From positions 6,304-70,303 of the IMG/VR virus record IMGVR_UViG_3300035130_000101: a stretch of 64,000 nt of DNA. One strand, written 5' to 3'. The position numbers and the translations under genes were made by a program. Below, in pieces: positions 19,180 to 55,810 of the stretch; positions within the stretch are counted from its first letter, which is position 1; each line of letters opens with the position of its first letter. The notes beneath the pieces were generated by a model. The model saw only the letters and a list, made by a program, of their open reading frames with translations. It did not search any database and was not told the DNA's origin. Source of the DNA: a virus.

Positions 19180-19628
19180 CAGTCCTTCAAGAAATCTTCC
19201 GTAGTATAAGAATTAATGTCTTCGACTAACTCGGCAGATGTGGAATCAATGATAATTTTAGTATGCGGATGCCAATAGTCATTAAGCCATTTTATTAGCT
19301 CTCTCGTCAATCGTTCAAATTCGTCTTTTGCCTGTTCATTTATATTCATCGGCTTTTCACTCCCACGCTTCCCATATATGCAGGCTTCGACATCCTTCAA
19401 ACATTCATTTAGAATAGCGGAAATCTCATCCACTTTGAACTTGTAACCGTCATCTGATTCATAATCGGTCAAGATGACTTTTTCGATGTCAAAAAGCATT
19501 TCTGCCATCCGCGCAATAATCATCTTGACATTGTGACCATCCGTACCGTGTCCGAAATCTTGCTTATACACTTGGCAAAACTCAATCTCTTTTTGCTGTC
19601 TCTCATCAAATAGAATAAGCCAACTCAT
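19179..19628 (-). CDS. hypothetical protein
   Basis: 149-aa acidic ORF. Confidence 0.45.
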   Translation of the reverse strand: MSWLILFDERQQKEIEFCQVYKQDFGHGTDGHNVKMIIARMAEMLFDIEKVILTDYESDDGYKFKVDEISAILNECLKDVEACIYGKRGSEKPMNINEQAKDEFERLTRELIKWLNDYWHPHTKIIIDSTSAELVEDINSYTTEDFLKD

Positions 19629-19643
19629 CTGTCTGCCTTTCTT

Positions 19644-20120
19644 TTATACTTCCCACGCTTCCCATATTTGCCTAAGAAATCTAGTCTCGTAATCCGATAA
19701 GCCAAACCTATCTTGTCTAGTTTTCCAGGTCTTATCAATATCCGTTTCAGTATCACGTTGTTGTCTAGCAACTTCCCAATCACATAACATCTCCAAAATA
19801 TCACCCAATGGCATACTCAAAATACCATCAGGCCAATATTCAGGGTGATGACTATTACGAGAAACGTGCAATCTTGCAGCGTTATTATTATGTACTATGG
19901 CTTCATACTCAGGTGAGCCATATTCATACTTTCGGGCATTATCAAGTTGGCAAAATCCCCCGAATTCTTCAAGGTCGAATTTGCTAAGGTCGTGTCTATC
20001 TGCCCTGTCCTCTAAGTCGCGGGCAAGTTTCCTGAGAAGATTGGCAACTCTTTGACGATGCTCGATTATCTTAACCAGCGTTATGATCTCGGAACTTGTT
20101 TCCATCTTTATATCTCCCAC
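19644..20120 (-). CDS. hypothetical protein with HD-like motifs
   Basis: RHDLSKF ... HHPEYW (weak HD-domain resemblance). Confidence 0.35.
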   Translation of the reverse strand: MGDIKMETSSEIITLVKIIEHRQRVANLLRKLARDLEDRADRHDLSKFDLEEFGGFCQLDNARKYEYGSPEYEAIVHNNNAARLHVSRNSHHPEYWPDGILSMPLGDILEMLCDWEVARQQRDTETDIDKTWKTRQDRFGLSDYETRFLRQIWEAWEV

Positions 20121-27874: not shown

Positions 27875-29445
27875 ATCATTTTCACCTGTGTAATCTCTTT
27901 CTCAGCTATCTCTAGGTTTTTGCAACCCCTTTCCCAGTAATTTGGCTTAAGTTCAAACAAGATAGCCTTGCGATCCATCTTAACTGCCTGATAACCCTCA
28001 CTCGCGTGACCACCATATGGAGACATTATTATATCTCCCAATTTGGTGTATTCACCGATTAGTTGACCTATTAAATCAAGCTGAAGAGGGCAGATGTGTT
28101 TTTCCTCGCTCTCGTCCTTTTGTTTTGCATATTTTAAGGCATTGGTTATTACATTGGTCTGCCGAATATCCATCAGGCAGTTGGGGTGACTGTCGGGCAA
28201 GCCGTCCAGATCAAACCAGACCGGTGAAGCGTATCGCTGCCACAACAGAATCGAGTAGTAGGTATTGTCTCTCCAACTGACAGGCGGACGATTGCCGACG
28301 TAATCGGAATGCACTTCATTGCCTTTGGTAATCGCCATCTGCCAGGTTCGTTCTTTTTCCTCGATTGTCTGAACTTCGCCGTTTGTCTGAATAATGTCAG
28401 AGTATACCCGCTCAAATGTCTGGTACTCAACATCCGGTGGCCTGATGCTATGCTTGACTACGTTATTCTCAAAGTCACCTTTCCAGTTACGAAACGTGAC
28501 AACGAACGAACCATCAGTCAAGGCGACCCGGCTATGGAATTTCCAGCCGTCAACCGACTCAAACTGCTTGATTATCGAGGCCAACATTCGGGCGGTGCAG
28601 TGGATAGAAGTCAAGCGGCCGGGGGTAGTTTTTCTCAGAATGTCACTGCAAAGAAGATCATCCATATATTTTTTTGTTGACCAGAATGAGTACTGGACCG
28701 GTACCTGCTCGATATTATCAATCCTTCCCCTAATATCAACCCCTAACGGCGTTGAGATATACTCGCCCTCATTAGTCCAGATATGGACCATCCGCTCTAC
28801 GACCTGCGGGTTAAGCGGCGGCAACTTGTCATTGATCTTTTCGCCGCCCTTGTTGAATACCAGGACGTAATCAGCGCAGCCCTGCCGGGTAACTTCGGCC
28901 CGCTCTGAAAAGCTCTTGTGTAGTAGGCCGTAGGTTTTGGTACGTTGCATCTCGATAACCGGGTCTTTCCAGACCGTCATCCATCGCTCGAAATTAAAGC
29001 CGATGGATTCACAGAGGCGGATAATCTCACCGGGGAAGTCATACAGACCGGCATAACCGTGAGATGACATATAGCGCATCGTGTCTTTGCAGTGAACGGC
29101 CATTCGCCCACCATCCTCCAGGACCCTGAACATCTCAGTCAGGTGATAATACCAGCCCTCGAAAAATTGTTCCTCGCTATCGGTGTTGCCCAAATCGGCA
29201 ATGGAGTCAGAATAAATATACAACGCGAGAAAGGGCGGGGAATACGGGATGAATTGAACTGATTTGTCGGGTAAATTCCTCATTCCAAAAACACAATCAG
29301 CCCCATAAAAAGCCCAGTTCTCTCCAAACTTCTGGTCAATTATCTGATTCACTTCATCCTCCCATTCAAAAAGTGGGGCAAGACCATTTCCGTATTGCCC
29401 AGATTGGTTGTCAATTTCTTTTGGTCTATTCGCCACAAACCACAT
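27871..29445 (-). CDS. DNA methyltransferase (N4-C or N6-A, beta-class motif order)
   Basis: IPYSPPF (motif IV, SPPF) near the N-terminus. IMSPYGGHASEGYQA (motif I-like) near the C-terminus. Large middle insert. Confidence 0.6.
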   Translation of the reverse strand: MWFVANRPKEIDNQSGQYGNGLAPLFEWEDEVNQIIDQKFGENWAFYGADCVFGMRNLPDKSVQFIPYSPPFLALYIYSDSIADLGNTDSEEQFFEGWYYHLTEMFRVLEDGGRMAVHCKDTMRYMSSHGYAGLYDFPGEIIRLCESIGFNFERWMTVWKDPVIEMQRTKTYGLLHKSFSERAEVTRQGCADYVLVFNKGGEKINDKLPPLNPQVVERMVHIWTNEGEYISTPLGVDIRGRIDNIEQVPVQYSFWSTKKYMDDLLCSDILRKTTPGRLTSIHCTARMLASIIKQFESVDGWKFHSRVALTDGSFVVTFRNWKGDFENNVVKHSIRPPDVEYQTFERVYSDIIQTNGEVQTIEEKERTWQMAITKGNEVHSDYVGNRPPVSWRDNTYYSILLWQRYASPVWFDLDGLPDSHPNCLMDIRQTNVITNALKYAKQKDESEEKHICPLQLDLIGQLIGEYTKLGDIIMSPYGGHASEGYQAVKMDRKAILFELKPNYWERGCKNLEIAEKEITQVKMI

Positions 29446-47396: not shown

Positions 47397-50300
47397 TCAT
47401 CCAATAAGCGCCTTTGCTACCTGATACTGCTGGATAACCGACTGCGGGGAGGCCAACGTGTTAACTGTCATATTGAACGTGTTATTTCTGTCGCCACCAC
47501 CTTTTAGCATCCCGGCTAATCGGTCCATAACCAGGCTGTCAATCGTCATCCCTCTCGGCGTGACAAGCAACTCCTCACCCGGCTCAAGGTACATCGGGCC
47601 AAACGTGTCACCCCGACCTTGCCCCGGTATTTTGTAGCCCAGGCCCAAGCCGTTTTGTAAACCGATACCCCGCATAAAGCCGATGCCTTTAGAAAAGCCG
47701 ATGCCGGTTTGTGCGCCGGATGCACTGCCAGCATCCTGCGCTGCCCGTGCCGCCTCTTTAGCAGCCTCCGCCATTTTCCTGAAAGCCTCTTCTGCGTCCA
47801 TAACGATCTCGATTAGATCATCGATAGCATCGGCAGCATCTTCCATATCGTCGACGATCTTTTCAGCCGCCCGAGATGCCGCTTCGCCTACTGCCGTGAA
47901 AGCCGAACCGAGAGCGTGAACGGCGGCAGTCAATTGATTGACCAGGGTCATAATAGCATTGATTGCGTCAGTGGCGGTTGTTTGGAGCGTCGGCAACGTT
48001 AGCACGTAAATATCGATGAGTGCAGTATCAAGCGGTATTATCCCCGTATCTTTTAACAATAGTAGTTTCTCGGATATCAGATCATATGTCAGCGTGAAGG
48101 CATCTTGCAACAGGGGCAAAGTGATCTCTACAAAATCGAGAATGGATTGCACGAAAGCCGTCCATTGCTCCTGTACCGGTAGCAGTCCAGCAGAGATAGA
48201 TTCAAACGCTGCTAACGGGTCAGCAGTGTCAAACTCTGGTCCAGTTGACTCTTCCTCTCCGCCACCGAATAAGCTACTAAAAACACCGGTGACGGCTTCG
48301 ACTGCTTTGCTTGCCAGCGAGCCTATGCCATCAATAAGACCCTGGATTAAATCAGCGCCAAAATCATAAAAAACGGTACTTGGTGAACTAATGCCAAGAG
48401 CTTCCTTAAAAGAGCTTATCAAAGCATTGGCACTTTCTGTTATAGCATTTTCCAAGTCCTGTTGAGCCTGTTTTATACCATTCTTGATACCATCTATGAT
48501 ATTTGTGCCGACTACTTTAGCTATTGTTTTCATATTTTCGCCAATGCCATTTAGGACACTGGTAAGTTCGCTTATCGTCGCCGGCTCGACTTGTATGCCT
48601 ATTTCATCGAGTAGGCCAGACACGATACCGGCGACGATTTGCGCCGCCAGTCCAACTATAGCTTGTGACACCGCCGATACTGCCGCTACCAGTCCGATTA
48701 TGATCTTGCCCAAGACCTTAGCCATCTCAGGGCCATTATCTCCAAAGTTACCAATTTGCTCGCCTAAAAATTGACCGATGGCAAAACCGGCATCTTTTAA
48801 GCCTGCTTGGGTTTCAGGTGATCCGGCCCATCTGATTATCTCCGCTACAACAACAATCAGTGCCTGAGTAGCCATATCAACGGCAGTATTAGTCCATTCC
48901 CAAAATTTAGCAGCCCAGTCTGAGTGAGCCTCGATCAACTCCGGTGCATAGTCTCTAATCTTTTGCCCGACAAACCCGGTCAACTCAGCCATCTTACCGG
49001 GACCATCAACGAGAGCGGTTACTGTCCAGTCCCAAAACTGATTGCCCCAAGTTGTTAATTGCGCCTCTATCTGAGGCCAAGCGTTATTGATAGTATCGAC
49101 GATCATTTCAATGACCGCCTGAAAATCAGTCGCCCCGCTGCGAAATGCTTCTATCCAACTGCTGACAAAAGCGATGGCGTTTTCAAGCGCAGGCACAACC
49201 TGATTATCCAGAGCATCGGTCAACGGGCCGGCAAAATCTGAGGCAAACGAGATACCCAGACTGATAAGCTGATTAACAAACGGCAATAGTCGAGTGCCAA
49301 TCGTATCGGCCAGGGCGCGCAAGGTGTTTTTGAATAGCTGTATCTGACTTTTGGTGGTAGCGTATCGCTGCGCCGCCTCGTTTGCCAGGGCCGTGTTTTC
49401 CTCAAAAGCCCCGTTAGCCGTCTGTAAGGTGCGCTCTAACAGATCACCCGCCCCGGCCAGTGACAGAAATGACCGGATTAACCGTTGATCTTCCAGGCCC
49501 AACTCGGCCAGCGTATTAACAGCATCGTCACCTTGCGCCCCCAGGCCCTCGACAAAAGCCAGAAATGCTCCGCTTGCATCTTTCTCCCAAGCGGCCTTGA
49601 AATCCTCAACGGTCATATTAGACGTGGCTGCAAATGTCGCCAGCAGGTTACTATCTATCGGTTGCCCGTGCTGCTGCCTGAGTAAATCTGTTTCCGCTTG
49701 CAATTCCTGAATAGCCTGAGCTGTCTCAAAAGCCTTTTGCCGGGTCTTGTCGCCCAACTGCCGCCCGAACTCCTCAGCCGAGCCACCGGCGGCAATGAAA
49801 GCTTGCTCTTGCGCTAATAGCTCCGCTTGCAAGCCAGGAAATTGCGCCTCTAGCCTGGCGGATTCGGCATTGAGTTTTGTCAACTTGTCAACGTTCTTAT
49901 CAATCTCATCTGTATAATCAACAAAGCCGGTAGCAGCCCCGGCCACGGCGTTATTGATTGCCAACAGAACCTTTTGTGTTGCCGTACCACCCGCTTCCGC
50001 CTCTACGCCAACCGATGACATTGCCGTACCGATGGCCAGTACATCAGCCTGGGTAAGCCCGGCTATTTTACCAGCCCCGGCTAGCCTCTCGCCAAAAGCC
50101 AAAATATCACGTTCTGTAGTAGCGAAGTTATTACCCAGGGCAACGATAGTCGAACCAAGTTGCTCGATATTCATCCCCATATCATCGGCGGAAATGTTGA
50201 AAATGTTGGAGATACGGGCCAGGCCGGTCGCAGCCTCTTCGGTCGAGAGGTTAGTTGATACACCCAGCGCGGCGACAGTTTCAGTAAATTCCAGTAGGGC

Positions 50301-50741
50301 ATCTTTGCCGATACCCAATTGACCGCCCAGCTCACCGATAGCAGCTAATTCCTCGAAGGTCAAGGGGACTGTTTTTGTCAGATCAACAAAGCCAGCGCGC
50401 AACTCCTTGCCAGCTTCGTTCAATTCACCGATACCGGAAGTCAAGCCGTCTGTTGTTTTGATGACCCCGGCAAATGCATCTTCAAACGATATGGCCGTGG
50501 TAGTCGAGACAGTAGCCAGCGCGCCCACGCCAGCGGCCAGCGCGCCCACACCGGCGACGGCTACGCCTGCGGCAAGTTTGGCGGTACTGCCTAATGCGCT
50601 GCCGAGCTTGCCGAACATTCCGCCGGCTTTGTCGGCGGACTTACCTAAGCCAAGTTGGGCTTTGTCGGCTTTGGAGAGATCGCGGAGATATGAGTTAAGG
50701 TTGCGTGCTAAAAATTCTACTCCTACTGGTGTTAATGCCAC
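47397..50741 (-). CDS. tail tape measure protein
   Basis: 1114 aa, Ala/Gly/Leu-rich and helical, with hydrophobic central segments. GTG start. Confidence 0.8.
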   Translation of the reverse strand: MALTPVGVEFLARNLNSYLRDLSKADKAQLGLGKSADKAGGMFGKLGSALGSTAKLAAGVAVAGVGALAAGVGALATVSTTTAISFEDAFAGVIKTTDGLTSGIGELNEAGKELRAGFVDLTKTVPLTFEELAAIGELGGQLGIGKDALLEFTETVAALGVSTNLSTEEAATGLARISNIFNISADDMGMNIEQLGSTIVALGNNFATTERDILAFGERLAGAGKIAGLTQADVLAIGTAMSSVGVEAEAGGTATQKVLLAINNAVAGAATGFVDYTDEIDKNVDKLTKLNAESARLEAQFPGLQAELLAQEQAFIAAGGSAEEFGRQLGDKTRQKAFETAQAIQELQAETDLLRQQHGQPIDSNLLATFAATSNMTVEDFKAAWEKDASGAFLAFVEGLGAQGDDAVNTLAELGLEDQRLIRSFLSLAGAGDLLERTLQTANGAFEENTALANEAAQRYATTKSQIQLFKNTLRALADTIGTRLLPFVNQLISLGISFASDFAGPLTDALDNQVVPALENAIAFVSSWIEAFRSGATDFQAVIEMIVDTINNAWPQIEAQLTTWGNQFWDWTVTALVDGPGKMAELTGFVGQKIRDYAPELIEAHSDWAAKFWEWTNTAVDMATQALIVVVAEIIRWAGSPETQAGLKDAGFAIGQFLGEQIGNFGDNGPEMAKVLGKIIIGLVAAVSAVSQAIVGLAAQIVAGIVSGLLDEIGIQVEPATISELTSVLNGIGENMKTIAKVVGTNIIDGIKNGIKQAQQDLENAITESANALISSFKEALGISSPSTVFYDFGADLIQGLIDGIGSLASKAVEAVTGVFSSLFGGGEEESTGPEFDTADPLAAFESISAGLLPVQEQWTAFVQSILDFVEITLPLLQDAFTLTYDLISEKLLLLKDTGIIPLDTALIDIYVLTLPTLQTTATDAINAIMTLVNQLTAAVHALGSAFTAVGEAASRAAEKIVDDMEDAADAIDDLIEIVMDAEEAFRKMAEAAKEAARAAQDAGSASGAQTGIGFSKGIGFMRGIGLQNGLGLGYKIPGQGRGDTFGPMYLEPGEELLVTPRGMTIDSLVMDRLAGMLKGGGDRNNTFNMTVNTLASPQSVIQQYQVAKALIG

Positions 50742-50770
50742 TTGACAAAATCCTTAAACTAAGATACAAT
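50742..50770 (+). promoter_or_regulatory. sigma70-type promoter of island cassette 1
   Basis: TTGACA-17 nt-TACAAT. The -35 abuts the GTG start of the TMP on the other strand. Confidence 0.65.
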
Positions 50771-50777
50771 AATTCTT

Positions 50778-50852
50778 GCCAGACAGTTGACTGAATAGAA
50801 TGGTTGATATAAAATTACAAATACTCTCCTCTGCTTTGGTCAATTGTCTGGC
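50778..50852 (+). ncRNA. 5'-terminal leader stem-loop of cassette 1
   Basis: GCCAGACAGTTGAC (50778-50791) pairs with GTCAATTGTCTGGC (50839-50852) with one G-U. It starts about 7 nt after the -10. Confidence 0.5.
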
Positions 50853-50903
50853 GACAAAGGCCATTCCAAAAGCGGAGGAGTTTTTTATTGCAAGGAGATA
50901 GCT

Positions 50904-51521
50904 ATGAGCAATATCGTTAAAGCAAAGGTCAAGGTAAGGGGCACTCGCCCATTTTGGCAACATCGTTTTGGCCCGGAAGCATTGCCACTCGAAAAGAAGG
51001 AAAAGACGGGCGTCGCCGGCAACAACCCCGAAGAATGGAGACAGACGGCAATGGTCAATAAAGACGGACAGCTTTTCTTTGAAGGTACTTACATTTTTGG
51101 TTCGCTGCGTGAGGCTGCAAAGTACACGAAGCGAGGCCGGGCATCCCTGCAAAAGCCGGTTGCCGCTACGCTTCAAATCTTGGAAGATAGAATCCTGCTT
51201 GATCGCTTTTTCCCCGGCTTTCCCAACGGTCACAAATTCGACATCGCTACCGTTGAAGAGCTGCCACGCGACCAGGAAGAATTGGTCTATTTGGACGTGA
51301 GAGGCGTCGTGAATCCATCGACGCGAGGCCGGAACGTGCGCTATCGGGTCGCTGCTTCTCCTGGTTGGCAAACCGAGTTTACCATTATGTTTGATAAGAC
51401 CATTGTCAGCCGGAATGAAATGGAAGCTATCTTGATTGACGCCGGGCGACTGGTTGGCATCGGCAATGGTCGGACTATCGGAATGGGCCGGTTTGAGGTT
51501 GAACAGTTCGAGTGCGAGTGA
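50904..51521 (+). CDS. island paralog A: uncharacterised roughly 205-aa protein with RAMP-like C-terminal glycine-rich loop
   Basis: AAGGAG SD. ...AGRLVGIGNGRTIGMGRFEVEQFE fits GhGxxxxxGhG. Clearly homologous to 53825-54403. Confidence 0.6.
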   Translation: MSNIVKAKVKVRGTRPFWQHRFGPEALPLEKKEKTGVAGNNPEEWRQTAMVNKDGQLFFEGTYIFGSLREAAKYTKRGRASLQKPVAATLQILEDRILLDRFFPGFPNGHKFDIATVEELPRDQEELVYLDVRGVVNPSTRGRNVRYRVAASPGWQTEFTIMFDKTIVSRNEMEAILIDAGRLVGIGNGRTIGMGRFEVEQFECE

Positions 51522-51783
51522 TATTACGGGGTCCGGTACAGTAGGGCGCAGCGGGGTAAGGTGTGGTAGAGTTTGGTACAGCGAGTTACGGTCCAGCTTG
51601 GCAAGCCATAGCAAGGAAAACAAATCTAATTTACGCGATATAGTATAACGCGGTCGAGTCGGGTTTTGTCCGGCAAGGATATGTCGAGTCAGGTTAGGCT
51701 GAGTCGGGTTAGGTCTCGTAAAGCGATGCAAGAAAAACAAACTAAACCACCACGAGGCGTAGTAGGGAACGGTAAGGTGGGGT
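51522..51783 (+). other. C-poor GT-rich degenerate-repeat tract 1 (non-coding)
   Basis: Stops in all plus-strand frames. GGTAAGG x2, GGTTAGG x2, GTCGAGTC(G/A)GGTT x3, GCAAGG(A) repeats. Confidence 0.6.
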
Positions 51784-52137
51784 ATGGCTCGCTTGTGTTC
51801 GGTCGAGTTAAGCAAAGCAAGGGATTTAATGCCAAAATCAAGACAGCCACAAGCAATATGGCAAGCCACCCGCCAAAGAGTTTGGCTTAGGGACAAGGGC
51901 CGTTGCCAGGGACCATACTGCAAAGATAAGCCTGAATGGTCCCTATCTCTGAAAGAGTGCCATATTGACCATATTCGCTCTGGCAAGTTGGCTACAAACA
52001 AATCGAGTAACCTCCGTGTTTTATGCCGTCGCTGCCATACCCTTAGAGCCGACAACAGGCATCGGGGTATGATAGCTTCTGCCCTACGTGCTAACATAAT
52101 TCCTGCCAATTGGCGTGAATTAGTCTGGGATGACTGA
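51784..52137 (+). CDS. small HNH endonuclease (island copy 1)
   Basis: RDKGRCQGPYC...CHIDHIRSG...NLRVLCRRCH. Start uncertain (ATG at 51784 or about 51829). Confidence 0.6.
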   Translation: MARLCSVELSKARDLMPKSRQPQAIWQATRQRVWLRDKGRCQGPYCKDKPEWSLSLKECHIDHIRSGKLATNKSSNLRVLCRRCHTLRADNRHRGMIASALRANIIPANWRELVWDD

Positions 52138-52221
52138 CCCGGCTTGGCGCAGCAGAGCAAGGATCAGCACCGACCGGCGTGGTGGGGTGTGGTAGAGTGC
52201 AGTTTAGTATCGCAAGGATAA
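52138..52221 (+). other. GT-rich tract 1b downstream of HNH-1
   Basis: Shares GGCGCAGC and the 13-mer GGTGTGGTAGAGT (52186-52198) with tract 1 (51560-51572). Confidence 0.55.
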
Positions 52222-52244
52222 GGGCCAGCAATGGCCCTTTTTTC
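52222..52244 (+). terminator. terminator of island cassette 1
   Basis: GGGCC-agcaat-GGCCC followed by TTTTTT. Confidence 0.65.
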
Positions 52245-52358
52245 TTTTGTGCGCCGGTCGGTGTCAGCGGCATTTTTTACCTTTTCTCTTCGCAAAAACA
52301 ACATTTTGCGAAGTAAAATATCCAACCTTAAAAGTGTGCAAATTGGTATTGAGGACTA

Positions 52359-52387
52359 TTGACAAGTGAACACTTATCTGCTATAAT
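52359..52387 (+). promoter_or_regulatory. sigma70-type promoter (consensus)
   Basis: GGACTATTGACA-17 nt-TATAAT. Confidence 0.75.
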
Positions 52388-52420
52388 AAGTACATCAAAC
52401 AGTAAGAAAGGATTAAGAAA

Positions 52421-52639
52421 ATGACTAAGCAGTTCAGATTTGTAGGTTTTTCTCATAAAACTTGGGAACCCGGTTGTCGAAATCTTGGTATGGTGTGGGC
52501 TTCTTCCATCGATGAAGCTCGGCAAGCCTTCAAAGAGAACGGCTTAGCTCCTCCGGTTATAAAACGAAAATTAGGCGACGCTTCTTATCGTCTAGTGGAT
52601 GATAACGGTAATGTCACTAAAGAAATGATTTTTCGCTAA
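52421..52639 (+). CDS. hypothetical small protein
   Basis: 72 aa. Consensus promoter at 52359-52387. Confidence 0.5.
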   Translation: MTKQFRFVGFSHKTWEPGCRNLGMVWASSIDEARQAFKENGLAPPVIKRKLGDASYRLVDDNGNVTKEMIFR

Positions 52640-52690
52640 CCACCCACCCGCCCCGCCGGTGGCCTCGTAACCGGCAGAAAGGTACTTAAG

Positions 52691-52894
52691 ATGAAAGATA
52701 TGGCATATTTTGTTAATCTGGTAGATGAGGCCAAGAAAACCAGAGATAATATTGGCGAGATGTTCAATGAAGCCTACTATGCCAAGCAAGATACTACTCG
52801 TTTACAACGGTTATTTGATAAAGCTACCGACCGCATCTTGCGCCGGATGGGTTATGTCTGGTTATTAGACCAGGCGAAAAATTTCAAAGAGTAA
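52691..52894 (+). CDS. hypothetical small protein
   Basis: 67-aa ORF. Confidence 0.45.
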   Translation: MKDMAYFVNLVDEAKKTRDNIGEMFNEAYYAKQDTTRLQRLFDKATDRILRRMGYVWLLDQAKNFKE

Positions 52895-52939
52895 CCACTT
52901 AATGGCCCGCCCGGGGCCTATCCGGGCAAAGGTGCTAAA

Positions 52940-53101
52940 ATGTTTTTGTCGCAGTCAGATTTTTCTCACTTGTTCAATGTTCTCAGGTCGGTTTATCCCA
53001 GTGACCTATACTCTGACAATGATTTGCTCGACTTCCTGGCTACACTAGACCACGTTCCAGATAATGATGAATTGTTAGACTTGTTCGAGGAGGCAATGTA
53101 A
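52940..53101 (+). CDS. hypothetical acidic small protein (unlisted 53-aa ORF)
   Basis: Manual translation MFLSQSDFSHLFNVLRSVYPSDLYSDNDLLDFLATLDHVPDNDELLDLFEEAM. TAATG overlap with the next gene. Confidence 0.4.
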   Translation: MFLSQSDFSHLFNVLRSVYPSDLYSDNDLLDFLATLDHVPDNDELLDLFEEAM

Positions 53102-53301
53102 TGTCATCTTCTCTCAAATCCCAACACCGCATCCAGCTTGACCCCGGCAACTTCGCCCGGCTGCAAGACATCGCCAAGCGGCTTGGCTACGTTCACCGGG
53201 CCGGGCCAGGAGCCGGTAAGGTCGGGTCGGTAAGCACGTTGATGGACGCAATCGCAAACCAAGAATCCGTAGTATCGTTAGCCAAAGAAAGGAATGAATG
53301 A
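53101..53301 (+). CDS. hypothetical small protein, possibly RHH-like
   Basis: HRIQLDPGNFARLQDIAKRLG. Confidence 0.4.
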   Translation: MSSSLKSQHRIQLDPGNFARLQDIAKRLGYVHRAGPGAGKVGSVSTLMDAIANQESVVSLAKERNE

Positions 53302-53558
53302 TGACCGATTATCAGATGATAAAGGAATACCTTGCAAGGCAAGTCAAGGAATGCGAACAGGCCATTATTAAATTTACAAATCGAGCAAACTTTGACGCAG
53401 GATTGGTGGCCGAGTTTCAAAGCTATGAACCCGATGTAGCTCTTATTTATGCTCAATGGCATCGCTTTCATCGAGATAAAGTCATCTATTTTCAAAAAAC
53501 GCTGGCGGTATTTCAAGATCGTTATTATGACTTTACCAAGTTTGACCCTAACCCTTAA
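53298..53558 (+). CDS. hypothetical small protein
   Basis: 86 aa, followed by terminator 53566-53588. Confidence 0.45.
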   Translation: MMTDYQMIKEYLARQVKECEQAIIKFTNRANFDAGLVAEFQSYEPDVALIYAQWHRFHRDKVIYFQKTLAVFQDRYYDFTKFDPNP

Positions 53559-53565
53559 CCACCTC

Positions 53566-53588
53566 GCCCCCGCAAGGGGGCTTTTTTT
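53566..53588 (+). terminator. terminator of the island small-gene operon
   Basis: GCCCCC-gcaa-GGGGGC followed by TTTTTTT. Confidence 0.75.
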
Positions 53589-53625
53589 ATTTCCCCTTTT
53601 TCGGCTTGACGTAATTTGCATCACT

Positions 53626-53654
53626 TTGACACCAATAATCATTTGTGATATAAT
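53626..53654 (+). promoter_or_regulatory. sigma70-type promoter (consensus) of island cassette 2
   Basis: TTGACA-17 nt-TATAAT. Confidence 0.75.
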
Positions 53655-53659
53655 ATCCC

Positions 53660-53774
53660 TTGTCAGACTAAACGGTTTGCGAGGGCGCTTTTTTGTTGCC
53701 CACAATTAACCGAATAATTGCGGATAGACCGCCCGGCTTGAATAGGGTAAGCGCCCAAACCGTTAGTCTGACAA
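53660..53774 (+). ncRNA. 5'-terminal leader stem-loop of cassette 2
   Basis: TTGTCAGACTAAACGGTTTG..GGGCGC (53660-53688) pairs with GCGCCC-AAACCGTTAGTCTGACAA (53751-53774), with bulges. Confidence 0.5.
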
Positions 53775-53824
53775 CTAAGGTTTTTCGAGCCGGGCGTTCT
53801 GTTTGCAAGAAAGAAAGGGTCACT

Positions 53825-54403
53825 GTGTATACCGTTGATGTATCTGTAGAAGGTGTTGCGCCATTGCTGCAACACAAGTTCCCGTTGCCGGACTTCTCCG
53901 ATCTTGGCAAGGGAGGCAAACAGTCCACGGGAGAAAAGGATTATACTGAGGAATGGAAGGATTATCTGTACGTAGATTCCGATGGCGAAATCTTTCAACC
54001 TGCCGTTCACTTTGACGGCTGTATGGTCAAGGCCGCCGTCAATTTCAAAATCCAGGGCAAGCGCGGCAAAACCTACAAAGATTTGTTCAAAGGTAACGTG
54101 TTCTGTTCGCCGGATGAAATTCTGCACGGTATTAAAGCTCCTGAAACTTTGGACAATGACGCCGACAAGCCGCTTTATTTGGATATTCGCCCCGTTGTTA
54201 TCAGCCGGGCCAGGGTAGTCAGGATTCGCCCCGCTTTTGCACCGGGCTGGAAACTGAGCTTTGAGATTGAAATCCTTGACGATCAAATTCCTGCCAACGT
54301 TGTTAATGAGGTTCTGTCCCTGGCCGGTAAGACCGTCGGTGTCGGTGATTTTCGCCCCCGTTTTGGCCGGTTTATGGTTACGAGGTTTGAGGTTCGGAAG
54401 TAG
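53825..54403 (+). CDS. island paralog B: uncharacterised roughly 192-aa protein homologous to 50904-51521
   Basis: GTG start chosen by alignment to paralog A (VSVEGVAPLLQHKF vs VKVRGTRPFWQHRF). C-terminal AGKTVGVGDFRPRFGRFMVTRFE. Confidence 0.55.
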   Translation: MYTVDVSVEGVAPLLQHKFPLPDFSDLGKGGKQSTGEKDYTEEWKDYLYVDSDGEIFQPAVHFDGCMVKAAVNFKIQGKRGKTYKDLFKGNVFCSPDEILHGIKAPETLDNDADKPLYLDIRPVVISRARVVRIRPAFAPGWKLSFEIEILDDQIPANVVNEVLSLAGKTVGVGDFRPRFGRFMVTRFEVRK

Positions 54404-54657
54404 ACTTTGTGGTAAGGGTGGGCAACGGTCAGGTAAGGTCCGGTAGTGGCAGGCTAGGAGAGGTTTAGTCCGGTATCGGTGTGACCTGGTGAGGGAAGGT
54501 CTGGTAAGGTAAAGTGAGGTAAGGGAAGTCTTGTGGTAAGGGAAAGGTGAAGTCGGATCGGGTGAGCTAAGATTGGGTGGGGTGTGGATTGGTGAGAATT
54601 GGCGCGGGCAGGTGAGGCAGAATAAGGTAAGGTTATCCAAATATTCGGTTGTCTGTT
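54404..54657 (+). other. C-poor GT-rich degenerate-repeat tract 2 (non-coding)
   Basis: Ten GGT(A/G)AG cores (GGTAAGG x6, GGTGAGG x2, GGTGAG x2). About 10 percent C by manual count. Stops in all frames. Confidence 0.65.
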
Positions 54658-54924
54658 ATGTCAAAGTATTTTACAGTAAACGAACTCCCTGGTTTGCATT
54701 TTCTATGGTATTCTCGATTGCCGCTTGATGTCTGGTTGCCGCTCAAGCAATACGTCTATCAAAGAGACGGCGGTATCTGCCAGTATTGCGGTAATCAGTT
54801 TGCCTACGAAAAAACTCACTGTCATCACGTTTTAGAATTATGTGAAGGCGGTACAAACCACCCCACGAACCTCAAGACGCTTTGCATTGATTGCCATAAA
54901 ACCAGACACCCGTTTATGAAGTAA
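54658..54924 (+). CDS. small HNH endonuclease (island copy 2)
   Basis: RDGGICQYCG...CHHVLELCEGGTNHPTNLKTLCIDCH. Confidence 0.65.
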   Translation: MSKYFTVNELPGLHFLWYSRLPLDVWLPLKQYVYQRDGGICQYCGNQFAYEKTHCHHVLELCEGGTNHPTNLKTLCIDCHKTRHPFMK

Positions 54925-55016
54925 TCTTGTGGCAGGGCCGTGGTACGGTGATGTGATGTGAGTTTTGGTGCGGCAAGGTGCGTCCGGGTGATGTAAGGAT
55001 TGGCTTGGTAAGGTAA
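54925..55016 (+). other. GT-rich tract 2b downstream of HNH-2
   Basis: cttgtggcaggg..., ggtgatgtgatgtgag, ttggtaaggtaaggg. Runs into terminator 55017-55042. Confidence 0.55.
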
Positions 55017-55042
55017 GGGTAGATTAAGTTCTACCCTTTTTT
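55017..55042 (+). terminator. terminator of island cassette 2
   Basis: GGGTAGA-ttaagt-TCTACCC followed by TTTTTT. Confidence 0.7.
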
Positions 55043-55335
55043 GTTTTTGGCATATTTGCATCGCTTACGTGCGCCTCGATTAGTAAACTTGCTTGATGAT
55101 AGGCAATCATTTCAGCTACAAATTCTCTTGGATATTCACCACGTCTTAACTTTAATAATTCATCTAAACCGGCTCCGCAATATATCGCTGCCCTAAATTG
55201 AGAGAATAATCCTAAGCTACCATTGTGACTTGTAATCCCTACTGGCTTTCCAGAGCGAAGCGGATATTCTTCAATTGCAATACCGTTTCTTTTAATCCCG
55301 AAAGCGAGATTTGGCCGCTGCCAAGTCCTCCTCGC
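55024..55335 (-). CDS. start-less 103-codon ORF in the +1 frame relative to the chaperone gene; candidate frameshift extension
   Basis: Manual translation ARRTWQRPNLAFGIKRNGIAIEEYPLRSGKPVGITSHNGSLGLFSQFRAAIYCGAGLDELLKLRRGEYPREFVAEMIAYHQASLLIEAHVSDANMPKTKKGRT. No ATG/GTG/TTG until codon 83. AT-rich codon usage. Confidence 0.35.
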   Translation of the reverse strand, partial: ARRTWQRPNLAFGIKRNGIAIEEYPLRSGKPVGITSHNGSLGLFSQFRAAIYCGAGLDELLKLRRGEYPREFVAEMIAYHQASLLIEAHVSDANMPKTKKGRT

Positions 55336-55810
55336 TTACGCCTGAAAGCATTGACAGCAAATTCCAATCGTCTGCCCCCAAAGCAAAATATCGTATAAAG
55401 ACAAAGCGACGTTCAAACTCATCGTCAAGATCGTAGTCATCCAGGTTCAGATGGCCCCGCTTCGCCAGAAAGCGCAACTTCTTGAGCCAGGCATCATCTG
55501 CCGGCAGGCCGTCAACCAATTCAACGCCGAGCATCGCCATTACATCAAAGCCCGCCTGTACCCGTTTGGCGAAGGCTTCCTGTTTGGCCGCGAGGTAGTC
55601 CGGGTCGTTTGGGTTTTCAACCGGATAATCTTTTCCCTCTACTTTTTGCTTTGGTACAGGCGGGTCTTTGATTGCCGTCGCCGCTTCCTGAATGGTAGCA
55701 GTAGGCACGGGGATAAGGCGAACCGTTATACCGGTCGATAGCTTGATCGGTTCGTCCAGATTGAGTTGTCCGTTCTTCTTTGCCGCGTCAACGGCGGGGC
55801 TTCTGGCCAT
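55292..55810 (-). CDS. putative tail assembly chaperone
   Basis: 172 aa with an acidic C-terminal half, between the putative tail tube and the TMP (by synteny). Confidence 0.45.
   Translation of the reverse strand: MARSPAVDAAKKNGQLNLDEPIKLSTGITVRLIPVPTATIQEAATAIKDPPVPKQKVEGKDYPVENPNDPDYLAAKQEAFAKRVQAGFDVMAMLGVELVDGLPADDAWLKKLRFLAKRGHLNLDDYDLDDEFERRFVFIRYFALGADDWNLLSMLSGVSEEDLAAAKSRFRD

What the first reader, a model, noticed from the sequence alone, without database searches (positions are those of the whole stretch)
51522..55016. Strand-asymmetric GT-rich tracts built from GGT(A/G)AGG-type cores; the HNH genes appear inserted into them
Tract 2 (54404-54657) has ten GGT(A/G)AG cores, about 10 percent C by my count, and GGG/GGGG runs such as GGGTGGGGTGTGG. 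Tract 1 (51522-51783) has GGTAAGG, GGTTAGG, GTCGAGTCGGGTT and GCAAGGA repeats. Sequence on both sides of HNH-1 is related: GGCGCAGC and the 13-mer GGTGTGGTAGAGT occur at 51560 and 52186. Both sides of HNH-2 share CTTGTGG(T/C)A(A)GGG. This suggests each HNH gene landed inside a longer GT-rich 3' region.

Possible roles:
- a repeat RNA bound or processed by the upstream paralog
- an SD-like (AAGG/GAGG/GGTGA) or GGA-motif sponge RNA
- G-quadruplex-forming DNA or RNA
- on the opposite strand, C-rich G-poor rut-like sites that would make Rho stop tail-operon transcripts entering the island
Basis: seen in the sequence. Interest (0 to 1): 0.7.

Follow-up and report, generated by a model that had tools for sequence, protein, structure and literature searches.

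The report
Two phage VIPR guide-RNA systems with HNH
The GT-rich tracts are arrays of guide RNAs made of five-base GGY-NN repeats, each array belonging to a small Cas7-like "Vipr" protein and an HNH nuclease; together they form two copies of the VIPR RNA-guided DNA-targeting system first described in 2026 preprints, carried here inside a phage tail operon.

Summary
Tract 2 has 10.2% C, ten GGTRAG cores and the highest GC skew in the window. The underlying unit is not GGT(A/G)AGG but a pentamer, Y-N-N-G-G (GGY fixed, NN hypervariable), in about seven units of 12-22 pentamers.

Each "upstream paralog" is a Vipr protein. The AlphaFold model matches Cas7, hhalign gives 99% probability against phage SUSP1 Vipr, and the only PDB sequence hit is "SUSP1 Vipr protein". 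Same-strand pentamer tracts flank most of the 79 homologous viral loci; 52 of the 54 loci in the two window clades carry the cognate HNH.

The locus is therefore two VIPR systems (bioRxiv 10.64898/2026.04.26.720920), each a unit of vipr, vrRNA array and HNH accessory gene with its own promoter and terminator. They sit in a 4.3-kb opposite-strand island between the tail chaperone and tape-measure genes.

The sponge, G-quadruplex and rut ideas and "HNH landed in the tract" are not supported. No natural target was found.

This is a new member of a known kind. Points of interest are that it is phage-borne and nuclease-armed, and that the two modules use different repeat grammars.

The parts
50742..50770 (+). 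Promoter of module 1 (TTGACA-17-TACAAT)
   Evidence: Matches 11 of 12 consensus positions.
50776..50903 (+). Structured 5' leader of vipr-1: a long stem, GCCAGACAGTTGAC paired with GTCAATTGTCTGGC
   Evidence: MFE -38.2 kcal/mol, z -3.1. Function unknown.
50904..51521 (+). vipr-1, 205 aa, Vipr (single-RRM RAMP). G-loop is GIGNGRTIGMGRF.
   Evidence: Pfam RAMPs E 0.0055 and Cas6 E 0.018. phrog_4652. BLASTP against SUSP1 Vipr E 8e-12. 1567 homologues.
51522..51626 (+). vrRNA 1.1: 17 in-phase Y-N-N-R-G pentamers followed by the end motif GCAAGGAAAACAAA
   Evidence: No significant fold, z +1.4.
51650..51745 (+). vrRNA 1.2: about 16 pentamers, then GCAAGAAAAACAAA
51756..51828 (+). vrRNA 1.3: about 13 pentamers, then GCAAGGGA. 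The end motif also serves as the ribosome-binding site of HNH-1.
   Evidence: The unit overlaps the 5' end of the mechanical ORF 51784-52137.
51829..52137 (+). HNH-1, the accessory (vap) nuclease of module 1, 102 aa from ATG 51829
   Evidence: Pfam HNH E 1.6e-6. The CxxxC, H-D-H, N and CxxCH motifs are intact. An HNH-1-type gene lies directly downstream of vipr in 40 of 42 Vipr-1-clade loci.
52138..52219 (+). vrRNA 1.4 (about 14 pentamers, possibly two short units) ending in CGCAAGGATAAGG
   Evidence: Shares GGTGTGGTAGAGT with vrRNA 1.1.
52220..52249 (+). Intrinsic terminator of module 1
   Evidence: 8-bp stem followed by a T-run.
52359..53590 (+). Separate unit between the two modules: a 12/12 promoter, five small ORFs (52421-53558) and a terminator at 53566-53581
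   Evidence: No Pfam or PHROG hits. No homologues next to other VIPR loci. Whether it belongs to the system is unknown.
53626..53654 (+). Promoter of module 2 (TTGACA-17-TATAAT with an extended -10 TG)
   Evidence: Matches 12 of 12 consensus positions.
53660..53824 (+). Highly structured 5' leader of vipr-2
   Evidence: MFE -67.1 kcal/mol, z -5.5. Function unknown.
53825..54403 (+). vipr-2, 192 aa from GTG, Vipr. G-loop is GVGDFRPRFGRF.
   Evidence: phrog_4652 E 1.6e-21. AF2 pLDDT 86. Foldseek top hits are Cas7, Csm3 and Cmr4, E about 1e-6. hhalign against SUSP1 Vipr: 99% probability, E 4e-18. PDB hit 36pp_D "SUSP1 Vipr protein", E 2e-21.
54404..54529 (+). vrRNA 2.1: header CTTTGTGGTAAGGG, about 22 Y-N-N-G-G pentamers with a few 4- or 6-nt slips, end motif GGTAAGGGAAGT
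54530..54648 (+). vrRNA 2.2: header CTTGTGGTAAGGG, about 18 pentamers, end motif GGTAAGGTTATCC
54658..54924 (+). HNH-2, the accessory (vap) nuclease of module 2, 88 aa from ATG 54658
   Evidence: Pfam HNH E 2.1e-9. An HNH-2-type gene lies downstream of vipr in 12 of 12 Vipr-2-clade loci.
54925..55014 (+). vrRNA 2.3: header CTTGTGGCAGGG, about 15 pentamers, end motif GGTAAGGTAAGG
55015..55048 (+). Intrinsic terminator of module 2
   Evidence: 9-bp stem followed by a T-run.

Best explanation
The region holds two complete VIPR (Viral Interference Programmable Repeat) systems. Each one is transcribed from its own strong promoter to its own terminator as vipr - vrRNA array - HNH - vrRNA.

Shown here:
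- The two "paralogs" are Vipr proteins, homologous to the experimentally characterised SUSP1 Vipr.
- The GT-rich tracts are arrays of about 75-125-nt units built from Y-N-N-G-G pentamers, with conserved GGY and hypervariable NN.
- A cognate HNH gene is co-inherited with each Vipr clade.

Taken from the two 2026 preprints on SUSP1 and P. fulva VIPR:
- One Vipr protomer binds each pentamer, so that Vipr forms a helical filament along the vrRNA.
- Vipr flips out and holds the GGY bases and presents the NN dinucleotides.
- The NN dinucleotides pair with double-stranded DNA under a one-nucleotide-skip rule (target reads xNNxNN..., where x is usually the codon wobble base). This forms a gapped R-loop.

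Inferred, not shown:
- The primary transcript is cut between units, at the junction of the GGYAAGG end motif and the (Y)TTTGWGG header.
- Once a filament has engaged a target in a competing phage or other mobile element, the small HNH protein cuts that DNA, so the system destroys the target rather than only repressing it.
- The two modules are orthogonal, each Vipr loading only its own array. Module 1 uses a relaxed Y-N-N-R-G repeat and a GCAAGGA end motif; module 2 uses Y-N-N-G-G and a TTTGTGG header.
For: - Fold: AF2 model with pLDDT 86 and pTM 0.80. The Foldseek PDB top 50 are all Cas7-family chains (type VII Cas7, Cmr4, Csm3, Cas7-11), E 6e-7 to 8e-5. Weak Pfam RAMPs and Cas6 hits.
- Homology to the characterised protein: hhalign of the family profile against SUSP1 Vipr gives 99% probability, E 4e-18, full length. 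BLASTP of Vipr-1 against SUSP1 Vipr gives E 8e-12. A profile search of the PDB returns a single hit, "SUSP1 Vipr protein" 36pp_D, E 2.2e-21.
- RNA-contact residues named in 10.64898/2026.04.26.720927 (H17, R138, D177, W178, R179) align to H17, R135, D175, F176, R177 in Vipr-2 and to H20, R148, N188, G189, R190 in Vipr-1.
- Repeat: 5-nt period. GGY conserved, NN at about 0 bits. The SUSP1 locus read directly shows the same GGTNN arrays beside its vipr.
- Conservation: same-strand pentamer tracts abut most of the 79 homologous viral loci (30 of the first 37; all but a few of the second 42 had pentamers passing the filter). The maximum GC skew of the locus falls at the vipr stop in 8 of the 12 Vipr-2-clade loci.
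- HNH synteny: 12 of 12 and 40 of 42 loci.
- Transcription units: promoters matching 11-12 of 12 consensus positions, and intrinsic terminators.
- Units are unstructured, as expected for a protein-bound guide.
- No self-target in the window, as reported for natural VIPRs.
- Literature.
Against: - No natural target was found. Exact seeds of 9-12 NN from five guides gave nothing beyond seed-only, chance-level matches in the viral, metagenome and genome collections.
- No expression, processing or binding data exist for this locus.
- The conserved, structured 3' tail (a pseudoknot in the SUSP1 clade) has no obvious counterpart here. Only short motifs are conserved.
- Module 2 units contain 4- and 6-nt slips, and module 1 has A in place of the first G in a third of its repeats. 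Some units could be decayed.
- A role for HNH in target cleavage has not been shown for any VIPR system so far.
- The preprint associates nuclease-type VIPRs mainly with host defence islands, not phages.
Confidence: 0.9

Rival explanations
1. The HNH genes are free-standing selfish homing endonucleases that inserted into a pre-existing GT-rich 3' region. They are not functionally tied to the repeats.
For: HNH genes are common mobile elements in phages. The tracts lie on both sides of each HNH, and the flanks share short strings. The position of HNH relative to the units varies among relatives, with a vipr-to-HNH gap of 0-344 nt.
Against: Each HNH type is restricted to one Vipr clade and is present in nearly every member: 12 of 12 and 40 of 42 loci. 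It is absent from 25 more distant Vipr loci. The last vrRNA end motif supplies the HNH-1 ribosome-binding site. The preprint lists HNH among the vap accessory genes.
Confidence: 0.04
2. The tracts are decayed, non-functional remnants of vrRNA arrays. The Vipr genes may still be intact, but the guides no longer direct anything.
For: Phase slips occur in vrRNA 2.1, and G1 is relaxed to A in module 1. No target was found.
Against: Period 5 is still significant in all four tracts. The relaxed G1 is shared by other loci whose Vipr has Ser at the same G-loop position, so it looks like a lineage property. Promoters, terminators, both vipr genes and both HNH genes are intact. The preprint notes frequent internal degeneracy in working vrRNAs.
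Confidence: 0.05
3. The functional strand is the antisense one. The C-rich, G-poor complement of the tracts acts as rut sites, so that Rho stops tail-operon transcripts entering the island.
For: The antisense strand of tracts 2 and 3 is 42-43% C and 10-12% G. The island sits on the opposite strand between the chaperone and the tape-measure gene, and no good sigma-70 promoter precedes the tape-measure gene.
Against: The composition follows directly from the GGY code. It is found wherever vipr occurs, whatever the neighbours and orientation. Terminating before the essential tape-measure gene would harm the phage.
Confidence: 0.03
4. The tracts act as a protein or ribosome sponge (SD-like or GGA motifs) or as G-quadruplex-forming nucleic acid.
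For: TAAGG-type 5-mers are mildly enriched in tract 2 (10 vs 5.0, sd 2.6). GG every 5 nt formally allows two-tetrad G4s.
Against: GGA is depleted relative to shuffles (4 vs 9.3; 6 vs 10.6). There is no canonical G3+ quadruplex motif. In the solved VIPR filament each GG is held by protein.
Confidence: 0.01

Closest known systems
VIPR systems (Vipr + vrRNA + vap), bioRxiv 10.64898/2026.04.26.720920 and 10.64898/2026.04.26.720927; reference locus Escherichia phage SUSP1 (KT454805, vipr at 28477-29061, minus strand)
   Same: - A Vipr protein of about 20 kDa, homologous over its full length, with the same G-loop (GxGD[FYW]RPRFGRF) in Vipr-2.
- Arrays of units of roughly 75-125 nt (SUSP1's are about 100 nt) made of GGY/NN pentamers on the coding strand.
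- A two-gene operon with an accessory gene.
- vrRNAs on both sides of the protein genes.
- Phage-borne, with no CRISPR array and no self-targets.
   Different: - The accessory gene is a small HNH nuclease. SUSP1 (type II) has a DNA-binding Vap1.
- Units have 12-22 repeats, against 9-16 in the SUSP1 and P. fulva clades; the companion paper notes up to 30 in nature.
- No long structured or pseudoknot tail. Instead there is a short 5' header (Y)TTTGWGG and a 3' GGYAAGG or GCAAGGA motif.
- Module 1 uses Y-N-N-R-G, and its G-loop has Asn in place of the G1-contacting Asp.
- Two divergent systems (32-34% identity) sit side by side.
- The preprint places nuclease-bearing types mainly in host defence islands, whereas this one lies in a phage tail operon.
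Class 1 CRISPR-Cas backbone proteins (Cas7: Csm3, Cmr4, type VII Cas7)
   Same: RRM fold with a thumb and a glycine-rich loop. Best structural matches have TM-scores of 0.5-0.6. One protomer binds each RNA repeat period, with periodic base flipping.
   Different: No CRISPR array and no other cas genes. The period is 5 nt rather than 6. The guide is read non-contiguously, 2 of every 5 nt. About 10-16% sequence identity.
HNH-armed Cascade variants (type I-E and I-F systems with HNH fused to Cas8 or Cas5). Recalled from my own knowledge, not tested here.
   Same: A RAMP filament on a guide RNA paired with an HNH nuclease instead of Cas3. This is the nearest precedent for how an HNH could cut DNA held in an R-loop.
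   Different: There the HNH is a fused domain of a Cascade subunit and the guide is a contiguous spacer. Here HNH is a separate protein of 88-102 aa, and how it is recruited is unknown.
TRAP (trp RNA-binding attenuation protein) binding of (G/U)AG repeats spaced by 2-3 nt. Recalled from my own knowledge.
   Same: A protein oligomer reads a triplet repeated every 5 nt or so along a single-stranded RNA.
   Different: The fold and function are unrelated. TRAP RNA is a regulatory leader, not a guide. I considered this as an analogy before the identification and then dropped it.

Membership tests
VIPR | Vipr protein homologous to the characterised SUSP1 or P. fulva Vipr | tested here: met
   hhalign 99% probability, E 4e-18, 176 aligned columns. 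BLASTP of Vipr-1, E 8e-12. The sole PDB profile hit is "SUSP1 Vipr protein" 36pp_D, E 2.2e-21.
VIPR | Small single-RRM RAMP fold with a thumb and a glycine-rich loop | tested here: met
   AF2 pLDDT 86. Foldseek top hits are all Cas7-family chains. A beta-hairpin at residues 117-138 carries invariant R135. The G-loop is GVGDFRPRFGRF.
VIPR | Conservation of the residues that hold GGY (SUSP1 H17, R138, D177, W178, R179) | tested here: met
   Vipr-2 has H17, R135, D175, F176, R177. Vipr-1 has H20, R148, N188, G189, R190, so two of the five are substituted.
VIPR | At least 4 tandem YNNGG (or related YNNNG/NNNGG) repeats next to vipr on the same strand | tested here: met
   Seven units of 12-22 pentamers. 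GG spacing is 5 or 10 nt in 64% of cases, against 7% in the background.
VIPR | GGY conserved while NN is hypervariable | tested here: met
   Positions 2-3 carry 0.04-0.07 bits; G2 carries 1.35 bits. With a filter that does not use G1, G1 is G in 80% of 2235 pentamers from the 55 Asp-type loci with at least 15 pentamers.
VIPR | Invariable, structured 3' tail capping each vrRNA | tested here: inconclusive
   Only short conserved motifs were found: a (Y)TTTGWGG header before each recognisable unit in the Vipr-2-clade loci examined, and a GGYAAGG or GCAAGGA 3' motif. No significant fold, z from -1.1 to +1.4. True RNA ends are unknown.
VIPR | Accessory (vap) gene in the operon | tested here: met
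   HNH-1 and HNH-2 (Pfam PF01844). Clade-specific synteny in 52 of 54 loci. The preprint's Fig. S21 legend lists HNH-domain Vaps.
VIPR | vrRNAs are expressed as RNAs of about 100 nt and co-purify with Vipr | not testable with these tools
   Only indirect support: one promoter and one terminator bracket each vipr-array-HNH unit.
VIPR | Natural DNA targets matching the NN code under the 1-nt skip rule, and no self-target | tested here: inconclusive
   No self-target: best 9/17, equal to the permuted-guide null. No target in 83 fetched loci. Exact seeds of 9-12 NN for five guides returned only seed-only matches or nothing. A mismatch-tolerant search of the large collections was not possible.
VIPR | Assignment to one of the seven published types (the HNH vap is probably type III) | not testable with these tools
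   The type tree, figures and data files are not held. Only figure legends could be read.
CRISPR-Cas (class 1) | CRISPR array of direct repeats of about 25-40 nt separated by unique spacers | tested here: not met
   TRF and the repeat finder show no such array between 50700 and 55100.
CRISPR-Cas (class 1) | Additional cas genes (Cas1/2, a large subunit, Cas5/6) | tested here: not met
   The only other ORFs in the island are five small proteins with no Pfam or PHROG hit.
Free-standing HNH homing endonuclease | Sporadic distribution, independent of neighbouring genes | tested here: not met
   Each HNH type is tied to one Vipr clade, in 12 of 12 and 40 of 42 loci.
Known structured RNA families (Rfam, including HNH-associated HEARO/omega RNA) | Match to a covariance model | tested here: not met
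   No Rfam hit at E <= 1 between 50000 and 56000 on either strand.
G-quadruplex or GGA/SD sponge | Canonical G3+ G4 motif; enrichment of GGA or SD motifs over composition | tested here: not met
   No canonical G4. GGA is depleted. SD-like 5-mers are at most 2-fold enriched, in one tract only.

The most novel reading that the evidence does not exclude
This reading has three parts.

1. The two modules are mutually orthogonal, nuclease-armed VIPR systems whose repeat grammar is set by one G-loop residue. Where the residue that contacts the first guanine is Asp (SUSP1 D177), the repeat is Y-N-N-G-G. Where it is Asn, Ser or Ala, that guanine is relaxed or lost (window Vipr-1: Asn, 54% G and 33% A; three Ser loci: 52-62% G; three Ala loci: 5-13% G). 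That would be a protein-RNA specificity switch that lets several VIPRs coexist in one genome.

2. HNH-bearing VIPRs are common, mobile, moron-like cassettes of phages rather than mainly host defence systems. They are found next to portal, head and tail genes.

3. They cut, rather than only repress, rival phage DNA, and may even act as RNA-guided homing cassettes.
Probability: 0.25. Interest if true: 0.7.

Novelty: new member of a known kind. Interest (0 to 1): 0.5.

Why it matters
VIPR is a very recently described way of recognising DNA with RNA. Only two of every five guide bases are read, and every third target base is skipped. It has been proposed as the ancestor of CRISPR effector proteins.

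This locus adds a clear natural example in which a lytic-type phage genome carries two divergent VIPR systems side by side. Each has its own HNH nuclease and a multi-guide array, and the pair is inserted in the middle of the tail operon.

- It shows that nuclease-type VIPRs are phage weapons as well as host defences.
- It offers a ready-made pair for testing whether Vipr proteins discriminate between repeat grammars.
- It gives seven natural guides whose targets could reveal which competitor this phage fights.
- It shows that a plain reading of raw sequence can find such systems, while repeat finders, Rfam, Pfam and gene callers all miss them.

Tried and rejected
- **Rfam**, both strands, E <= 1: nothing.
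- **The other extreme-skew region**, window 19468-19879: ordinary minus-strand coding sequence.
- **tblastn of Vipr-2 against 50,697 GenBank phages.** Only three weak hits. SUSP1 was not found this way, so I fetched the SUSP1 locus by accession and compared by profile.
- **Target search under the 1-nt skip rule.**
  - Window self-scan, using skips of 0, 2 and 3 and permuted guides as controls.
  - All fetched loci.
  - Five exact-seed scans of viral contigs covering vrRNA 1.1 (5' and 3' seeds), 2.2 (middle and 3' seeds) and 2.3.
  - Two metagenome scans: vrRNA 1.2, and a 12-NN seed from 2.3.
  - One genome scan with vrRNA 2.3.
  - Hits matched the seed and then 0-2 of the remaining positions, in numbers close to chance.
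- **The best lead.** Eleven contiguous NN of vrRNA 2.3 match the (D/E)EFAKARDKFF motif of Bacteroidota dnaE (12/17), and a multi-copy Lentisphaeria gene matches 10/17. I rejected it as unsupported for three reasons. About one seed hit is expected by chance. The hits are not independent, because the peptide is conserved. And this phage's perfect sigma-70 promoters and SD sites argue against a Bacteroidota host.
- **Close island-free relatives of the phage**, to test homing: only chaperone homologues at 29-34% identity exist in the viral collection.
- **Look-up of P0001**: not on record.
- **Homologues of the five small ORFs near other VIPR loci**: none.
- **TRAP-like ring binding and Cas6-type processing** were early working ideas. 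The VIPR identification superseded them.

Full report
**1. What is in the sequence**

The finding lies in a phage.
- The tape-measure gene (PF10145) runs on the minus strand from 50741 to 47397.
- The tail chaperone (55810-55292) and a 503-aa tail protein follow on the same strand.
- Between them sits a 4.3-kb island on the plus strand.
- In distant relatives (chaperone 29-34% identical), the tape-measure gene starts about 215-270 nt after the chaperone ORF. The island is therefore an insertion into the canonical tail operon.

The island has three transcription units. Each has a sigma-70 promoter matching 11-12 of 12 consensus positions and an intrinsic terminator.
- Module 1, 50742-52249.
- Five small ORFs of unknown function, 52359-53590.
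- Module 2, 53626-55048.

**2. The observation**

- Tract 2 has 10.2% C and ten GGT[AG]AG cores. It has the largest GC skew in the window, +0.66.
- Every quoted k-mer is at the stated place and is unique to the island.

The real regularity is a 5-nt period.
- GG-to-GG distances are 5 nt (43%) or 10 nt (21%), against 4% and 3% elsewhere.
- Period 5 is the strongest Fourier component in all four tracts.
- Written as Y-N-N-G-G, positions 2-3 carry almost no information (0.04-0.07 bits). Y and GG are conserved.
- The tracts break into about seven units of 12-22 pentamers.
- In module 2 each unit starts with CTT(T)GTGG and ends with GGTAAGG. In module 1 each unit ends with GCAAGGA.
- TRF and a seed-based repeat finder barely register any of this, because two positions in five vary freely.

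**3. The upstream genes**

- The two "paralogs" are 205 aa and 192 aa and 32-34% identical. Both belong to phrog_4652, a family of unknown function. They give only sub-threshold Pfam hits to RAMPs and Cas6.
- The family is large. There are 372 and 1567 word-indexed hits, none of them named. A profile search finds 5607 representatives of 50%-identity clusters at E <= 1e-3.
- An AlphaFold model (pLDDT 86) matches Cas7-family chains throughout the Foldseek top 50.

**4. Conservation of the tract**

- I fetched 37 viral loci around Vipr-2 relatives and 42 around Vipr-1 relatives.
- In the closer relatives the region just downstream of the gene is G-rich and C-poor; it holds the locus's maximum GC skew in 8 of the 12 Vipr-2-clade loci. 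This holds whether the genome is about 30% or about 65% GC.
- Read directly, these regions are GGYNN arrays with the same header and end motifs.
- Same-strand tracts flank the gene in most loci, and almost never lie on the opposite strand.

**5. Identification**

[quoted passage not shown] A second search found its structural companion, 10.64898/2026.04.26.720927.
- These papers describe VIPR systems:
  - a Vipr RAMP protein of about 20 kDa;
  - vrRNAs made of 9-16 YNNGG repeats plus a tail;
  - one protomer bound per repeat;
  - GGY held by the protein;
  - NN pairing with double-stranded DNA while skipping every third target base;
  - accessory vap genes, which include HNH nucleases.
- I read the reference locus in phage SUSP1 directly. 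It has a 195-aa vipr gene flanked by GGTNN arrays.
- The window family aligns to SUSP1 Vipr over its full length: hhalign 99% probability, E 4e-18; BLASTP E 8e-12.
- A profile search of PDB sequences returns a single hit, "SUSP1 Vipr protein", E 2.2e-21.
- The residues reported to hold the GGY bases are conserved in Vipr-2 (H17, R135, D175, F176, R177). Three of the five are conserved in Vipr-1.

**6. The HNH genes**

- Both keep the zinc-binding cysteines and the catalytic His and Asn.
- HNH-2-type genes follow vipr in 12 of 12 Vipr-2-clade loci.
- HNH-1-type genes follow vipr in 40 of 42 Vipr-1-clade loci.
- Neither type occurs in 25 more distant Vipr loci, and two of those that I read (L015, L024) appear to carry a different, DUF559-like nuclease gene instead; that assignment rests on reading the sequence and was not tested.
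- Between vipr and HNH there are 0-4 vrRNA units, and often one more after HNH.
- HNH is therefore a co-inherited component, the vap gene, and not a random insertion.
- The mechanical ORF for HNH-1 overlaps vrRNA 1.3. The likely start is ATG 51829, whose ribosome-binding site is the vrRNA end motif.

**7. Mechanism**

Shown here:
- the homology;
- the repeat code;
- the synteny;
- the operon structure;
- the lack of RNA secondary structure in the units, z from -1.1 to +1.4;
- the absence of self-targets.

Taken from the preprints:
- filament assembly along the vrRNA;
- the gapped R-loop;
- the skip rule;
- R-loop growth from the 3' end of the vrRNA towards its 5' end.

Inferred:
- processing of the transcript at the unit junctions;
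- DNA cleavage by HNH after target engagement;
- orthogonality of the two modules.

**8. Targets**

- I converted the guides into xNN patterns.
- Local mismatch-tolerant scans of the window and of 83 loci gave nothing above the permuted-guide controls.
- Exact-seed scans of the public collections returned only matches confined to the seed or nothing at all.
- A genome scan with vrRNA 2.3 hit a conserved peptide-coding motif in Bacteroidota dnaE (12/17) and a Lentisphaeria multi-copy gene (10/17). This is near chance expectation and fits poorly with the phage's sigma-70 and SD signals. I do not count it as a target.
- Targets therefore remain unknown. A proper mismatch-tolerant search of the large collections could not be run.

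**9. Rival readings**

- There is no Rfam family.
- There is no CRISPR array.
- There is no canonical G4 motif, and GGA is depleted.
- The C-rich antisense strand follows from the code.
- Decay of some units cannot be excluded.

**10. Novelty**

The kind is known, but only since April-June 2026. This locus is a new member. Its notable features are as follows.
- There are two divergent systems in one island.
- HNH accessory genes sit in a bona fide phage, whereas the preprint ties nuclease types mostly to host defence islands.
- Related cassettes lie beside portal, head and minor-tail genes, often on the opposite strand.
- The vrRNA architecture is header-plus-end-motif, without an obvious structured tail.
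- The G-loop residue correlates with how strictly the first G is kept.

Noticed in passing
window 50904-51521 vs 53825-54403; loci L001-L081: The G-loop residue aligned to SUSP1 D177, which contacts the first G of GGY, tracks how well that G is conserved. Asp: 80% G over the 55 loci with at least 15 pentamers. Ala (L020-L022): 5-13% G. Ser (L043, L050, L069): 52-62% G. Asn in window Vipr-1: 54% G and 33% A. Exceptions exist: L075, L077-L079 and L081 have Asp but low G, and L055 and L073 have Asn but high G.
   Followed up: partly
window 50776-50903 and 53660-53824: Both vipr genes have long, strongly structured 5' leaders with long stems (z -3.1 and z -5.5). They contain no GGY repeats. They may be regulatory, but their function is unknown.
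   Followed up: partly
window 50888-50903, 51815-51831: The module 1 vrRNA end motif GCAAGG(A/G) is also the Shine-Dalgarno element of vipr-1 (GCAAGGAGATAGCTATG) and of HNH-1 (GCAAGGGATTTAATG). Binding of Vipr or processing at the last unit could be coupled to HNH translation.
   Followed up: no
window 47397-55810; L084-L087: The island separates the tape-measure gene from the rest of the tail operon. No good sigma-70 promoter precedes the tape-measure gene (best match 9 of 12). Its transcription may have to run antisense through both VIPR modules.
   Followed up: partly
L104 (SRR11696579 contig), window 51829-52137 and 54658-54924: The same phage was assembled from a second data set. The public gene calls there omit both HNH genes and call a spurious minus-strand ORF instead. 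HNH-type VIPRs may therefore be under-counted in annotation-based surveys.
   Followed up: no
window 53190-53235 (inside small ORF 53101-53301): A short GGY-like stretch (CCGGG CCGGG CCAGG .. TAAGG TCGGG) lies inside one of the five small ORFs between the modules. It could be coincidence, a remnant vrRNA or a decoy.
   Followed up: no
window 54387-54394; L003, L007, L011 headers: The conserved C-terminal Phe-Glu-Val of Vipr is encoded by TTTGAGGT. That is the same string used as the vrRNA header (TTTGAGGTT) in low-GC relatives. The header may have arisen by duplication of the end of the gene.
   Followed up: no
L096-L099, L103 (Bacteroidota dnaE); L095, L100-L102 (Lentisphaeria): Eleven contiguous NN of vrRNA 2.3 match, in codon register, the DNA polymerase III alpha motif (D/E)EFAKARDKFF (12/17 overall). 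A similar peptide occurs in a multi-copy Lentisphaeria gene (10/17). I judged this to be chance.
   Followed up: yes
L015 4516-5200, L024 3375-3900: Some more distant Vipr loci appear to carry a DUF559/Vsr-like nuclease gene, rather than an HNH, after the vrRNA array. This rests on reading the sequence only.
   Followed up: no
window 19468-19879: This is the second most extreme GC-skew region of the window (-0.48). It is ordinary A/G/T-rich coding sequence on the minus strand and is unrelated to the finding.
   Followed up: yes
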